From the sequence record OR544956: 64,000 bases of DNA. One strand, given 5' to 3'. The notes beneath the pieces were generated by a model. That model saw nothing but the letters and a program-made list of their open reading frames with translations, ran no database searches and was not told the origin of the DNA. Each line of letters starts with the position of its first letter. The stretch's first letter is position 1. The stretch is from Escherichia phage vB_EcoM_EP57. The translations under genes were made by a program, and so were the position numbers. Below are positions 53,633-56,270 of the stretch, one piece after another.

Positions 53633-53638
53633 ATTATG

Positions 53639-53708
53639 TATCCCGTGCTGGATTCGAACCAGCATCACAATAAGCTGTGGAACTCTTATCCTGTAAGTCT
53701 AACGGGAA
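53639..53708 (-). tRNA. tRNA-like element, unassigned (anticodon arm cannot be folded; possibly degenerate)
   Basis: Good T-arm GCTGG-TTCGAAT-CCAGC and acceptor pairing, but only about 70 nt. Confidence 0.3.
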
Positions 53709-53710
53709 AC

Positions 53711-54036: not shown

Positions 54037-54134
54037 ATAAATCATTTAATGAAGGGCAACCAGAAGAGGTGTGAGAGAAGGAGAAAACCATGAGTAAAAG
54101 AGAAAGTTTTCTGGCAACCCTTTATTAAATAATT

Positions 54135-54208: not shown

Positions 54209-54219
54209 CCTACATCTTT

Positions 54220-54249
54220 ACTATACTACATTTTACTATTGGTTGTCAA
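54220..54249 (-). promoter_or_regulatory. tRNA-operon promoter 1 (CTATTGACAA-18-TATAGT)
   Basis: Minus strand; -10 ends about 11 nt before the tRNA-Gly 5' end. Confidence 0.55.
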
Positions 54250-54524
54250 TAGTTTTATTGAGTGGGACAGTGACGAGTATCCCGTTGGGTGACTAGCCCT
54301 ACGTTCGGTAAGCTAACTTAAAATAATACAAAACCAAAGTCAAATATTATTCTTCGTTGCTGTCGATGGGAGAGCCGCTTCTCATTTTGCCCCATCCAAC
54401 CCTACTCCGGTCAAGTTTCGGGTAACTCTTTTTGTGTGATCAACACAATACTAAGAACACTGTCTTTCGAACAGACCTTGTGCACAGGATACGACGATCA
54501 ATCACAGTGCTCTTAATGTTGTGT

Positions 54525-54599: not shown

Positions 54600-54605
54600 A
54601 AAGCT

Positions 54606-54682
54606 GGGACTCGGCAGGATTCGATACCTGCAATTCCAGAAGCCTCTTGGCGACTGGGGGTTTACCTTAACTCTACAAGTCC
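54606..54682 (-). tRNA. tRNA-like element, unassigned (T-arm near-identical to tRNA-Pro but with an 8-nt loop; no foldable anticodon arm)
   Basis: gcaggattcgatacctgc versus gcaggattcgaacctgc in tRNA-Pro. Confidence 0.3.
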
Positions 54683-54689
54683 ATAATTC

Positions 54690-54775
54690 TGGCGATGAGT
54701 ATAGGATTTGAACCTATATCGTTCTTTCGAACACGGATTAACAGTCCGCCGCTTAAACCATTCAGCCAACTCATC
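54690..54775 (-). tRNA. Class II (long variable arm) tRNA with anticodon GTT
   Basis: Perfect acceptor GATGAGT/ACTCATC, T-arm ATAGG-TTCAAAT-CCTAT, extra arm GTTC-GAAA-GAAC, anticodon loop CTGTTAA. Confidence 0.45.
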
Positions 54776-54781
54776 TTAATT

Positions 54782-54869
54782 TGGTGGTGAGTGATGGAGT
54801 TGAACCACCCGAATCGCAATGATAACAGATTTACAGTCTGCCCCGCTACCCCTACGGAATTAACTCACC
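54782..54869 (-). tRNA. tRNA-Tyr (anticodon GTA), class II
   Basis: Anticodon arm CAGA-CTGTAAA-TCTG as in E. coli tRNA-Tyr; 88 nt. Confidence 0.6.
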
Positions 54870-54947
54870 TAAATACTAATATTTAAATTCTTTTTAAAAT
54901 AGCCAGTGTTCACACCACTAACTATGTAAGCCATATTAAAAAGAACT

Positions 54948-55033
54948 TGGCGGTAGATGTAGGACTCGAACCTACACGCCGTTTCCGACTACAGTTTAGC
55001 AAACTGTCGTGGCTACCATTTCACCAATCTACC
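54948..55033 (-). tRNA. tRNA-Ser (anticodon GCT), class II
   Basis: Anticodon arm ACAGT-TTGCTAA-ACTGT; long variable arm. Confidence 0.65.
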
Positions 55034-55038
55034 TAATC

Positions 55039-55129
55039 TGGCGGAAGGAGGGAGAGTCGAACTCCCAAGGCTCTTTCAAGCTCGGCGGTTTTCAAGACCG
55101 TTTTCGTCGCCACGTCGATTTGCCCTTCC
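55039..55129 (-). tRNA. tRNA-Ser (anticodon TGA), class II
   Basis: Anticodon loop CTTGAAA; long variable arm; 91 nt. Confidence 0.55.
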
Positions 55130-55137
55130 ATACTTAT

Positions 55138-55167
55138 AATCTAACATAAAATAATGTTTGTTGTCAA
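55138..55167 (-). promoter_or_regulatory. tRNA-operon promoter 2 (CTATTGACAA-18-TAGATT)
   Basis: Minus strand; -10 ends about 9 nt before the tRNA-Ser(TGA) 5' end. Confidence 0.5.
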
Positions 55168-55363
55168 TAGTTTTTTAAAACATTTTACCATGAATGGTGA
55201 CTCCACCAACCCCCGTTCTCCACGAACGGTGCTCTTCGAGCATTTATGTCTTCTAATATAACCGTGGCCTTTGTTTATAATGTCTGACATACTTGCCTCA
55301 TTCTCTGCCACCATGATCAGTAGTGGGTTCAAATTACTTGAGCTAATTCATGTTAAAATGTTC

Positions 55364-55438
55364 TGGTGTCTTTACAAGGAATCGAACCTTGACTAAGAGT
55401 TTAGAAGACTCCTGTGCTATCCATTACACCATAAAGAC
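55364..55438 (-). tRNA. tRNA-Arg (anticodon TCT)
   Basis: Anticodon loop CTTCTAA; acceptor GTCTTTA/TAAAGAC. Confidence 0.6.
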
Positions 55439-55440
55439 GT

Positions 55441-55515
55441 TGGTGGCCCTGGCTGGTTTCGATCCAGCTACCTATCGGTTATGAGCCGACAGCTCTCCCA
55501 TTGAGCTACAGGGCC
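55441..55515 (-). tRNA. tRNA with anticodon CAT (Met or Ile2), second copy
   Basis: Acceptor GGCCCTG/CAGGGCC, D-stem GCTC/GAGC, anticodon loop CTCATAA. Confidence 0.6.
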
Positions 55516-55519
55516 ATAA

Positions 55520-55713
55520 ATGTGGTAACAGAGACGCTGACGATTGTAGAGAACCGCTACATTCTCTAAGACCAAGCCCAACTTTCAGCGTAAAAGTTCT
55601 TGAGCCGAGACTGTTCCTTTTCCTCTTTGGTAGCTAACCTCTGAAGAAGTAGTCTCTAACACTACCGCAGTGCAAGCCCCTCTTAACAAAAGTCAACGAC
55701 ACTGTTACCACAC
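55520..55713 (-). ncRNA. Candidate structured small RNA (about 190 nt) closed by a perfect 10-bp terminal stem, first transcript unit behind promoter 3
   Basis: Plus 55522-55531 gtggtaacag is the exact reverse complement of plus 55702-55711; lies between a promoter and the first tRNA; no ORF. Confidence 0.35.
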
Positions 55714-55724
55714 TTGATGAACGT

Positions 55725-55754
55725 ATCCTAACATATGAAGGATACGTTTGTCAA
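55725..55754 (-). promoter_or_regulatory. tRNA-locus promoter 3 (CTATTGACAA-18-TAGGAT)
   Basis: Minus strand, directly downstream of the 55762..56010 stop. Confidence 0.5.
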
Positions 55755-55761
55755 TAGTTAT

Positions 55762-56010
55762 TTAAGCATATTCTGCTACTTCTTCACTATCTTTCTTTTC
55801 CAGAAGAGCAACAACCAAAGCTTCTGCGTTAAAAGTATTAATTTCAAGATCCATCTCTCGCATCAGAGCCAAGAAATCAATAACTTTAACATCTTTAGTG
55901 ATTACAATAGAAGTTGTACCATTGTTTTCAGATGTGTATTTTTCTGGATGGAAAAGAAAAACTGCATTGCCGTTACCATCTTCAAACACGTGTTTTTCTA
56001 ATAGAGACAT
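55762..56010 (-). CDS. Hypothetical protein
   Basis: Strong ribosome-binding site tAGGAGGaacaATG. Confidence 0.45.
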   Translation of the reverse strand: MSLLEKHVFEDGNGNAVFLFHPEKYTSENNGTTSIVITKDVKVIDFLALMREMDLEINTFNAEALVVALLEKKDSEEVAEYA

Positions 56011-56018
56011 TGTTCCTC

Positions 56019-56270
56019 CTAATCTGTTAGTTGTTCGTCCTCTACCAAGTTTGACACGAGAACGTCTGTTATATATTGATGCTGATAAACCCTTTCGGGA
56101 CTATCATCAAAAGCCAAACCTGTGCAAATAGAACAGAGGTCTGATTCCTTGATGACTCCATTTTTATCACGTCTGGAGTGGTTTGTCAAATGCCTATTAC
56201 AAGCACGGCACCTAAAATAAAAGCTATTTTGCATATATCCTTCGAACCCCAAATGGGGAGTGATCGGCAT
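56019..56270 (-). CDS. Small Cys-rich protein
   Basis: CRACN ... CSIC. Confidence 0.35.
   Translation of the reverse strand: MPITPHLGFEGYMQNSFYFRCRACNRHLTNHSRRDKNGVIKESDLCSICTGLAFDDSPERVYQHQYITDVLVSNLVEDEQLTD

What the first reader, a model, noticed from the sequence alone, without database searches (positions are those of the whole stretch)
55520..55713. About 190-nt non-coding RNA candidate closed by a perfect 10-bp terminal stem
Plus 55522-55531 (gtggtaacag) is the exact reverse complement of plus 55702-55711, so the minus-strand transcript starting just downstream of promoter 3 would begin and end with a 10-bp helix, and it runs straight into a tRNA. No ORF is present. This resembles the stable small RNAs that some phages encode within tRNA clusters.
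Basis: seen in the sequence. Interest (0 to 1): 0.6.

Follow-up and report, generated by a model that had tools for sequence, protein, structure and literature searches.

The report
New structured RNA heading phage tRNA operon
A roughly 200-nt stretch at the head of the tRNA gene cluster of a phAPEC8-type E. coli phage is a real, evolutionarily maintained folded RNA that matches no described RNA family; its function is unknown, so it adds to the small set of mysterious stable RNAs that phages keep beside their tRNA genes.

Summary
The inverted repeat exists exactly as described: 11 perfect bp within a 22-bp terminal helix. Alone it means nothing, because 10-11-bp repeats at this spacing are as common in shuffled sequence. 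The whole element, 55516-55718 on the minus strand, carries the evidence. It folds far better than shuffles (z = -4.9; -5.5 and -4.8 in two lineages about 20% diverged). Its five-helix consensus structure has 14 of 73 pairs with compensatory double changes, against 0-2 in register-shifted controls. The one small ORF that stays open does not evolve like a coding sequence.

It begins about 3 nt after the predicted start site of a strong sigma-70-type promoter and ends 2 nt before tRNA-Met. Two sister promoters in the cluster have a tRNA in that slot. It matches no Rfam family, is not homologous to T4 rnaC/rnaD, and is absent from E. coli genomes, plasmids and the sister genus Justusliebigvirus. 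It is present in all 70 Phapecoctavirus-type records found.

Verdict: a genuine, genus-restricted, previously undescribed structured ncRNA, probably released by RNase P cleavage of the downstream tRNA. Two invariant complementary loops suggest a kissing contact. Expression and function are untested.

The parts
55725..55754 (-). Sigma-70-type promoter: -35 TTGACA (55754-55749), 18-nt spacer, TG-extended -10 TAGGAT (55730-55725). Predicted start site is about 55718.
   Evidence: Found by the scan. It has the same 'aAaACTATTGACAAc-18-TAnnnT' context as the two other promoters in the cluster, at 55167 and 54249. The -35 box is invariant and the -10 is TAGGAT or TAAGAT in the diverged lineages.
55720..55748 (-). 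10-bp hairpin (AACGUAUCCU / AGGAUACGUU, 9-nt loop) lying over the promoter spacer and -10 box, just after the stop codon of the upstream 82-aa ORF.
   Evidence: Seen in the sequence. Between lineages it shows two compensatory changes plus one G-U (alignment A1). Its role is unknown: possibly a 3' hairpin of the upstream mRNA, or an operator.
55516..55718 (-). The structured RNA itself, 203 nt from the predicted start site to the RNase P site of tRNA-Met.
   Evidence: z = -4.9. The consensus has 73 pairs, 14 of them compensatory. The covariance model scores 233 bits on the minus strand and 32 on the plus strand. No Rfam match at E<=10.
55693..55715 (-).
   Evidence: 22 pairs, 17 never vary and none show a double change. 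A C-to-G mismatch shared by 3 phages is tolerated.
55518..55540 (-). It ends 2 nt before tRNA-Met.
55678..55692 (-). P2, a weak hairpin rich in U-G pairs, with invariant loop GUUAA.
   Evidence: 5 pairs, 1 with a double change.
55659..55673 (-). P3 hairpin. The stem covaries and the loop is variable.
   Evidence: 3 of 6 pairs have double changes (CACUG/UAGUG, CAUCG/GAUG, CACAU/GUGUG).
55607..55656 (-). P4, a long interrupted arm. Its invariant apex GAGGUUAGCUACCAA lies at 55627-55641, with GCUAC at 55630-55634.
   Evidence: double changes at pairs 67-110 and 74-98. The apex is invariant in 13 distinct sequences.
55575..55606 (-). P5, a 32-nt arm that is sequence-invariant except for one compensatory U-A to A-U pair.
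55541..55574 (-). P6 hairpin. The stem covaries strongly. The loop GUAGC (55556-55560) is invariant and complementary to GCUAC of the P4 apex.
   Evidence: 5 of 7 distal pairs and 2 of 4 proximal pairs have double changes. The loop is invariant. Single-sequence folds of the diverged lineages build a long-range helix on this complementarity.
55441..55515 (-). tRNA-Met(CAT). RNase P cleavage at its 5' end would define the 3' end of the RNA.
   Evidence: ARAGORN and Rfam. The processing step is inferred from established tRNA maturation.
55364..55438 (-). tRNA-Arg(TCT), the next gene of the same transcription unit.

Best explanation
This is a gene for a discrete, structured, non-coding RNA of about 200 nt. 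It is the first cistron of a tRNA transcription unit in Phapecoctavirus (phAPEC8-like) phages.

Inferred steps:
- Host sigma-70 RNA polymerase starts at about 55718, 3 nt before the terminal helix P1.
- The transcript continues into tRNA-Met and tRNA-Arg.
- RNase P cleavage at the 5' end of tRNA-Met releases the RNA with only a 2-nt 3' overhang. Both ends are then locked in the 22-bp helix P1 and protected from exonucleases and 5'-end-dependent decay.

Shown: the body is a five-way junction (P2-P6) maintained by selection.

Inferred function: the RNA acts in trans as a folded particle, not by antisense pairing. Its sequence-invariant surfaces (P1, P5, the P4 apex and the P6 loop) are contact sites. 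The complementary P4-apex and P6-loop sequences (GCUAC and GUAGC) form a kissing contact that compacts the molecule or joins two molecules. The partner and the biological role are unknown. Because it is co-expressed with the phage tRNAs, the role is most likely connected with translation, tRNA takeover or host tRNA-targeting functions.
For: Structure:
- z = -4.9, -5.5 and -4.8 in three lineages about 20% apart.
- 98% of cells are paired, against 42-49% in slid controls.
- 14 pairs have double changes, against 0-2 in slid controls and 7.6 +/- 1.6 in shuffles.

Strand: 233 bits against 32 bits; MFE -72.3 against -51.9 kcal/mol; 16 G-U pairs.

Not coding: the conserved 34-codon ORF has differences of 6/9/6 by codon position, with 1 synonymous and 13 non-synonymous codons. 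Neighbouring genes show 12/8/33, 25/17/53 and 7/5/29.

Gene-like placement: there are three near-identical promoters. A tRNA starts a few nt after the -10 box at two of them, and this RNA does so at the third. P1 begins 3 nt after the predicted start site and ends 2 nt before tRNA-Met.

Selection on loops: the P3, P4 and P6 stems covary, while the P4 apex, P5 and the P6 loop are invariant in 13 distinct sequences.

Retention: present in all 70 Phapecoctavirus-type records found.

No antisense target: the longest complementary match in the window is 13 nt, within the shuffle range of 10-15 nt.

Precedent: T4 RNAC and RNAD are expressed stable RNAs from the tRNA region (PMC9697503, PMC3014915). 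GOLLD and ROOL lie near phage tRNA islands and use kissing loops (PMC12286853).
Against: - There are no expression data of any kind. No transcriptome of these phages was found.
- The promoter, start site and RNase P release are predictions.
- P1 and the proposed loop-loop contact never vary, so covariation neither supports nor refutes them.
- Only three independent lineages exist, so statistical power is limited and the shuffle control overstates significance for related sequences.
- Nucleotide identity of the element between lineages (81%) is no higher than that of flanking spacers and ORFs.
- Several other inter-tRNA spacers in this cluster also fold into stem-closed structures. Self-closure may therefore be a general property of the operon and not a sign of a trans-acting RNA.
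- No partner protein is encoded next to it.
Confidence: 0.6

Rival explanations
1. It is a cis-acting structured leader or processing module of the tRNA operon. The fold exists, but its job would be local: to cap the 5' end of the primary transcript, to insulate tRNA folding, or to offer the 22-bp P1 as an RNase III or RNase E entry site. After processing the excised piece would be discarded.
For: - It is physically the 5' leader of the tRNA-Met and tRNA-Arg transcript.
- P1 is about two helical turns of dsRNA followed by AUUUAU. This fits RNase III and RNase E preferences, which I state from my own knowledge of these enzymes and did not test.
- Other spacers in the cluster are also closed by long stems: 55130-55363 with z = -3.5, 54037-54134 with z = -5.7, and 54870-54947 with z = -3.1.
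Against: - The two sister promoters drive tRNAs with essentially no leader, so no leader is needed for tRNA expression.
- A simple cap or insulator does not explain a five-way junction with invariant loop sequences on covarying stems.
- The sister genus and T-even phages express similar tRNA sets, including the same Met-Arg pair, without it.
Confidence: 0.25
2. It encodes a small protein: the 34-codon TTG ORF at 55689..55585 on the minus strand, which is annotated as a CDS in some relatives.
For: The ORF is open, has the same length and uses the same stop codon in all three lineages. It is annotated as a hypothetical protein in PsgM04F and a few other records.
Against: - It has a TTG start with no Shine-Dalgarno sequence upstream.
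- Substitutions are 6/9/6 by codon position, with 1 synonymous and 13 non-synonymous codons, unlike the flanking genes.
- The same substitutions are explained pair by pair as compensatory changes in RNA helices.
Confidence: 0.03
3. It is a chance inverted repeat or a DNA-level element: an invertible segment, an operator pair, or a single-strand origin.
For: Inverted repeats of this length are expected by chance. Unrelated viral contigs carry arrays of the same GGTAACAG motif.
Against: - Compensatory changes occur in internal helices and the element is strongly strand-asymmetric, with many G-U pairs that would be A-C mismatches on the other strand.
- It has one orientation in all 70 genomes.
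- The motif occurs nowhere else in the window.
- No recombinase gene is adjacent.
Confidence: 0.03

Closest known systems
Phage T4 stable RNAs RNAC (species 1, 139 nt) and RNAD (species 2, 119 nt)
   Same: - Non-coding RNAs encoded inside a phage tRNA cluster, on the tRNA strand and directly abutting tRNA genes (T4 order: tRNA-Arg, rnaD, rnaC).
- Presumably excised by the tRNA-processing machinery.
- Function still unknown after decades (PMC3014915, PMC9697503).
   Different: - No sequence or structure homology: the covariance model finds nothing in the T4 region.
- T4 rnaC carries a canonical T-arm (CCGGGUUCGAAUCCCGG) and is tRNA-like. This RNA has none.
- This RNA is larger, forms a five-way junction, and sits at the head of its transcription unit directly after a promoter, not after tRNA-Arg.
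GOLLD and ROOL ornate RNAs of phages and prophages
   Same: Structured RNAs of unknown function found in phages, 'often near tRNA islands' (GOLLD env-38 lies downstream of a Met-tRNA). Their architecture relies on kissing loops (PMC12286853). Here two invariant complementary loops are the most conserved unpaired features.
   Different: - They are 3-4 times larger (about 580 to over 800 nt) and contain many pseudoknots.
- No Rfam match to either family, even at E<=10.
- Oligomerisation of this RNA is pure speculation.
Bacterial Y RNAs (YrlA) and phi29 pRNA, as architectural analogies only
   Same: In both, the 5' and 3' ends pair into a long terminal helix carrying a structured module. pRNA uses two complementary loops for intermolecular contacts (my own knowledge; not tested here).
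   Different: - No Rfam hit to Y RNA or pRNA models.
- No Ro/TROVE gene or phi29-type packaging system in the 40 kb around the locus.
- No tRNA-like module.

Membership tests
T4-type tRNA-cluster stable RNAs (rnaC / rnaD) | Encoded within a phage tRNA gene cluster, on the same strand as tRNA genes and abutting them | tested here: met
   The element lies 2 nt upstream of tRNA-Met on the tRNA strand. T4 layout is shown.
T4-type tRNA-cluster stable RNAs (rnaC / rnaD) | Sequence or structure homology to T4 rnaC or rnaD | tested here: not met
   Model R1 gives no hit in the T4 region L030 or the Dhakavirus region L039. blastn of the element finds only Phapecoctavirus-type phages.
T4-type tRNA-cluster stable RNAs (rnaC / rnaD) | tRNA-like 3' domain (T-arm GGUUCGAAUCC), as in rnaC | tested here: not met
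   T4 rnaC shows the T-arm. This RNA has none, and there is no tRNA, tmRNA or tRNA-like Rfam or ARAGORN hit over 55516-55718.
T4-type tRNA-cluster stable RNAs (rnaC / rnaD) | Accumulates as a stable small RNA during infection | not testable with these tools
   No read data are available, and no transcriptome paper for these phages was found.
GOLLD / ROOL | Match to the Rfam covariance model | tested here: not met
   No match at gathering threshold or at E<=10.
GOLLD / ROOL | Phage-encoded and adjacent to a tRNA island | tested here: met
   The family description is in PMC12286853.
GOLLD / ROOL | Large size (over 500 nt) with multiple pseudoknots and homo-oligomeric assembly | tested here: not met
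   The RNA is 203 nt. One possible loop-loop contact is invariant and so unproven. Oligomerisation is not testable here.
tRNA / tmRNA | Cloverleaf, or acceptor and T-arm, recognised by ARAGORN or Rfam | tested here: not met
Y RNA (YrlA-type) | Rfam model match, a tRNA-like module, and a Ro (TROVE) gene nearby | tested here: not met
   No Rfam hit. No such gene is annotated within +/-20 kb in phage tuntematon. Only the terminal-helix architecture is shared.
Riboswitch or T-box-type leader | An expression platform (terminator/antiterminator or RBS sequestration) controlling a downstream gene | tested here: not met
   There is no terminator-like site between P1 and tRNA-Met. The downstream gene is a tRNA starting 2 nt after P1. 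No Rfam cis-regulatory hit.
Base-pairing sRNA | A conserved single-stranded seed with a complementary target | tested here: inconclusive
   There is no complementary match longer than 13 nt in the 64-kb window, within chance. The remaining roughly 86 kb of the phage genome was not examined for targets, and host transcripts were not scanned for short complementarity. blastn against E. coli genomes found nothing at E<=1.

The most novel reading that the evidence does not exclude
The RNA is a self-associating particle. The invariant, partly palindromic P4 apex (GGUUAGCUACC) and the P6 loop (GGUAGC) would pair between molecules, giving dimers or rings. That would make it a miniature counterpart of the ROOL and GOLLD nanocages or of phi29 pRNA. 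The assembly would serve as a decoy or sponge for a host factor that targets tRNAs or translation, for example an anticodon-nuclease-type defence. It would then be an RNA-only anti-defence or takeover device expressed together with the phage's replacement tRNAs.
Probability: 0.1. Interest if true: 0.85.

Novelty: new variant of a known kind. Interest (0 to 1): 0.5.

Why it matters
Phage tRNA islands repeatedly harbour structured RNAs whose function nobody knows. T4 RNAC and RNAD have been unexplained for about 50 years, and GOLLD and ROOL only recently gained structures. This element adds a compact (about 200 nt), well-delimited example in easily cultured, genetically tractable E. coli phages that are widely used in therapy collections (phAPEC8, the ESCO phages and the Danish wastewater isolates). 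Its promoter and processing sites are clear, and a sister genus naturally lacks it. That makes the general question of what tRNA-island RNAs do directly testable by deletion, complementation and pull-down. Practically, the region is currently unannotated or mis-annotated as a hypothetical protein in public records.

Tried and rejected
- **Rfam:** searched at gathering threshold over the window and at E<=10 over 54600-56100. Nothing over the element.
- **Homology to T4 rnaC/rnaD, Dhakavirus, Mosigvirus JS09 and Justusliebigvirus tRNA regions:** no covariance-model hit. JS09 has the same Met-Arg pair with only 80 nt upstream.
- **Distant relatives by exact-pattern scans:**
  - The P4 apex pattern in viral contigs gave 26 hits, only 1 real.
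  - The P5 pattern with free stem positions gave 2 real hits in metagenomes, both in known lineages, and 1 chance hit in bacterial genomes.
  - The P1 arms with a free interior gave 3 unrelated contigs carrying GGTAACAG repeat arrays.
- **Host or plasmid origin:** no blastn match.
- **Antisense target within the window:** nothing beyond chance.
- **Paralogy or pairing with the two other long spacers of the cluster:** none beyond chance.
- **P1 arm as a recurring DNA motif:** it occurs only at the two arms.
- **Coding hypothesis:** rejected by codon-position statistics.
- **Inverton:** rejected, since all genomes have a single orientation.
- **Literature:** no transcriptome or ncRNA report for these phages. 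The 2023 viral csRNA survey lists candidates of 29-151 nt and its supplement is not held, so overlap could not be checked.
- **Ideas from inspection, not pursued:** resemblances to CsrA-binding GGA motifs, boxA, the T-box, the RNase P P4 helix, 5S rRNA, and a tRNA-Lys or tRNA-Arg anticodon-loop mimic in P5. In each case the relevant bases are not conserved between lineages, or no model supports the match.

Full report
**What the window is.** blastn places the region in Phapecoctavirus, the phAPEC8-like myoviruses of E. coli (subfamily Stephanstirmvirinae), with more than 99% identity to many isolates. The finding lies at the upstream end of a minus-strand tRNA cluster. ARAGORN tRNAs there and Rfam. 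The cluster sits just after a divergent intergenic region and upstream of the spanin, large terminase and structural genes.

**Checking the observation.** The two 10-nt arms are exact reverse complements at the stated coordinates. The perfect match is 11 bp, 55521-55531 with 55702-55712.

This alone is not evidence of anything. Perfect inverted repeats of >=11 bp with a 100-300 nt gap occur 7 times in the window, against 3.9 +/- 1.6 in dinucleotide shuffles. For >=10 bp the counts are 13 against 15.2.

The signal appears only when the whole element is considered. The minus-strand RNA 55516-55716 folds to -72.3 kcal/mol, against -53.0 +/- 3.9 for shuffles (z = -4.9, 0 of 200 as stable). The plus strand reaches only -51.9 kcal/mol.

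**Relatives and covariation.** blastn with the element alone finds 70 phage records, all Phapecoctavirus-type. Sixty-four are 97.5-100% identical and six are about 80% identical (the phiWec phages and PsgM04F). One IMG/VR contig represents a third lineage. Two metagenome contigs belong to the known lineages.

A MAFFT alignment of nine sources gives an RNAalifold consensus of 73 pairs:
- P1 is a 16+6 bp terminal helix.
- It closes a five-way junction of hairpins P2 to P6.
- 14 pairs show changes on both sides that keep the pair.

Counted against controls:
- 98.0% of cells are paired, against 42-49% when the 3' partners are slid by 1-3 columns.
- 14 pairs have double changes, against 0-2 in slid versions and 7.6 +/- 1.6 in column shuffles.

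The double changes concentrate in P3 (3 of 6 pairs), P4 (2 pairs), P5 (1 pair) and P6 (7 of 11 pairs).

With 13 distinct sequences the picture holds. The stems of P3, P4 and P6 covary. P1, P5, the P4 apex (GAGGUUAGCUACCAA) and the P6 loop (GUAGC) are constant in sequence. P1 tolerates single mismatches; one of them, C15G, is shared by three phages.

The two diverged lineages fold independently, with z = -5.5 and -4.8 and the same P1, P2 and P3.

Overall nucleotide identity between lineages (81%) is no higher than in the flanking spacers and ORFs. The evidence is therefore the pattern of substitutions, not unusually high conservation.

**Strand and coding potential.** The covariance model scores 233 bits on the minus strand and 32 on the plus strand. 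Sixteen consensus pairs are G-U.

A 34-codon TTG ORF (55689..55585, minus strand) stays open in all lineages and is annotated as a CDS in a few records. Three points argue against translation:
- It has no Shine-Dalgarno sequence.
- Its differences fall 6/9/6 across codon positions.
- It has 1 synonymous and 13 non-synonymous codon changes.

The three neighbouring real genes show 12/8/33, 25/17/53 and 7/5/29, with synonymous changes at least as frequent as non-synonymous ones. The element is not protein-coding.

**Transcription-unit anatomy.**
- A TTGACA-18-TAGGAT promoter with an upstream TG lies at 55754..55725. It is conserved in the diverged lineages, where the -10 box is TAAGAT.
- Two further promoters inside the cluster, at 55167 and 54249, share nearly the same context, aAaACTATTGACAAc.
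- At those two, a tRNA begins within about 3-12 nt of the -10 box.
- At the first, this RNA occupies that slot. The predicted start site (about 55718) is 3 nt before P1, and P1 ends 2 nt before G1 of tRNA-Met (55515).

The element is therefore placed like a gene of the operon. A leader is evidently not needed to express phage tRNAs.

From established tRNA maturation I infer that RNase P cleavage at tRNA-Met releases the RNA with both ends buried in P1.

**What it is not.**
- No Rfam family matches, even at E<=10 in a 1.5-kb search.
- It is not homologous to T4 rnaC or rnaD, which lie after tRNA-Arg in T4. rnaC has a canonical T-arm, which is absent here.
- It is absent from the syntenic tRNA cluster of the sister genus Justusliebigvirus.
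- It is absent from T-even-type phages that share the tRNA-Met/tRNA-Arg pair.
- It is absent from E. coli genomes and plasmids.
- Pattern scans of the viral, metagenome and bacterial genome collections found no further lineages.
- The P1 arm sequence is not a recurring motif in the window.
- No antisense target exceeds chance in the window.
- It shows no paralogy or pairing with the other long spacers.
- No RNA-binding, reverse-transcriptase or Ro-type gene is adjacent.

**The loop-loop complementarity.**
- The invariant P6 loop 5'-GUAGC-3' (55560-55556) is complementary to the invariant 5'-GCUAC-3' in the P4 apex (55634-55630).
- In the phiWec lineage the complementarity extends to 6-7 bp.
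- Single-sequence folds of both diverged lineages build a long-range helix of 10-12 bp on it.
- Because these bases never vary, covariation cannot test the contact. I estimate a roughly 10% chance of finding such a match among five loops by accident.
- I treat it as a plausible kissing interaction, within one molecule or between molecules, or as an alternative conformer. It is inferred, not shown.

**Interpretation.**
- Shown: a minus-strand RNA structure maintained by selection, non-coding, genus-restricted and universally retained, positioned as the first gene after a conserved promoter and abutting a tRNA.
- Inferred: early transcription by host polymerase, release by RNase P, stability conferred by P1, and trans action through the invariant surfaces.

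The main rival is a purely cis role as a leader, cap or processing module. Other inter-tRNA spacers in the cluster are also stem-closed, which supports that rival. The leaderless sister promoters and the elaborate junction with invariant loops argue against it.

**Comparison with known systems.** The closest known things are analogues, not relatives:
- T4 RNAC and RNAD come from the tRNA region, and their function is unknown (PMC3014915, PMC9697503).
- GOLLD and ROOL are phage RNAs near tRNA islands, rich in kissing loops, also of unknown function (PMC12286853).

I file this RNA as a new family within that loosely defined kind.

A 2023 survey of viral structured RNAs reports candidates of 29-151 nt from IMG/VR clusters (PMC10690425). 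This element is longer and occurs in one IMG/VR contig here, so it was probably not captured. The supplement could not be checked.

**Verdict.** It is a solid candidate for a new phage ncRNA family of unknown function. Interest is moderate. It would rise sharply if the RNA proved to be an oligomeric particle or an anti-defence decoy.

Noticed in passing
window 55130-55363 (minus strand), between tRNA-Arg and the next promoter: A second element of about 195 nt is closed by an 18-bp terminal stem (z = -3.5). One C-G to U-A compensatory change falls in that stem, and the centre is hypervariable. It also holds an ORF with a good Shine-Dalgarno sequence (GAGG, 5 nt, ATG; 55290..55141, 49 aa) and a conserved C-terminal peptide, CSKSTVRGERGLVESPF. 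Whether it is a structured RNA or a small protein is unresolved.
   Followed up: partly
window 53633-53710 and 54600-54689 (minus strand): Two 'spacers' fold like tRNAs, with an acceptor-type stem plus a T-arm (GCUGGUUCGAAUCCAGC and GCAGGUAUCGAAUCCUGC). Neither ARAGORN nor Rfam calls them. They may be degenerate or non-canonical tRNAs. They are 95-98% identical to the lineage that differs by about 20% elsewhere.
   Followed up: partly
window 54037-54134 (minus strand), between tRNA-Gly and tRNA-Gln: A 98-nt spacer forms a terminal stem of about 24 bp around a pyrimidine-rich loop of about 45 nt (z = -5.7). It is 100% identical in the diverged IMG/VR lineage, while some neighbouring tRNAs differ by 17-27%.
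   Followed up: partly
window 55043-55129 and 54785-54869 (minus strand): ARAGORN misses two tRNA-like genes. The first hits the Rfam tRNA-Sec model at 37 bits, below threshold; relatives have tRNA-Ser(TGA) at that position, and it is only 63% identical between lineages. The second hits the Rfam tRNA model at 39 bits, and relatives have tRNA-Tyr there.
   Followed up: partly
window 55754, 55167 and 54249 (minus strand): Three near-identical promoters (aAaACTATTGACAAc, 18 nt, TAnnnT) divide the tRNA cluster into three transcription units.
   Followed up: partly
window 55720-55748 (minus strand): A 10-bp hairpin overlaps the spacer and -10 box of the first promoter, immediately after the stop codon of the upstream 82-aa ORF. 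It keeps pairing through two compensatory changes and one G-U in the diverged lineages. It has no U-tract, so it is not a canonical terminator.
   Followed up: partly
window 55364-55515; loci L049 (JS09) and L039 (vB_EcoM_005): The adjacent tRNA-Met(CAT)/tRNA-Arg(TCT) pair also occurs as a pair in T-even-type phages. tRNA-Met is 96-97% identical to that of Mosigvirus phages, which suggests lateral exchange of a tRNA module between unrelated myoviruses.
   Followed up: partly
window 54209-54524 (minus strand), between tRNA-Thr and tRNA-Gly: This 316-nt spacer starts with an 82-nt near-perfect long hairpin directly after tRNA-Thr. In the sister genus the equivalent 324-nt gap is annotated as a protein (Phi92_gp112), but no ORF of >=60 aa exists here.
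   Followed up: no
loci L051 2979-3174 and L052 843-1026: Unrelated IMG/VR contigs carry dense arrays of GGTGGTAACAG / GTTACCAC repeats, the same 10-mer as the P1 arm. These look like iteron or operator arrays. They give no covariance-model hit and have no tRNAs nearby.
   Followed up: partly
public records (e.g. OR584014 PsgM04F, MG065650 'Campylobacter phage B15', OP562383 'Acinetobacter phage ABPW7'): Several records nearly identical to E. coli Phapecoctavirus genomes are labelled with Pseudomonas, Campylobacter or Acinetobacter hosts. These are probably contaminant isolations or mislabelled hosts.
   Followed up: no
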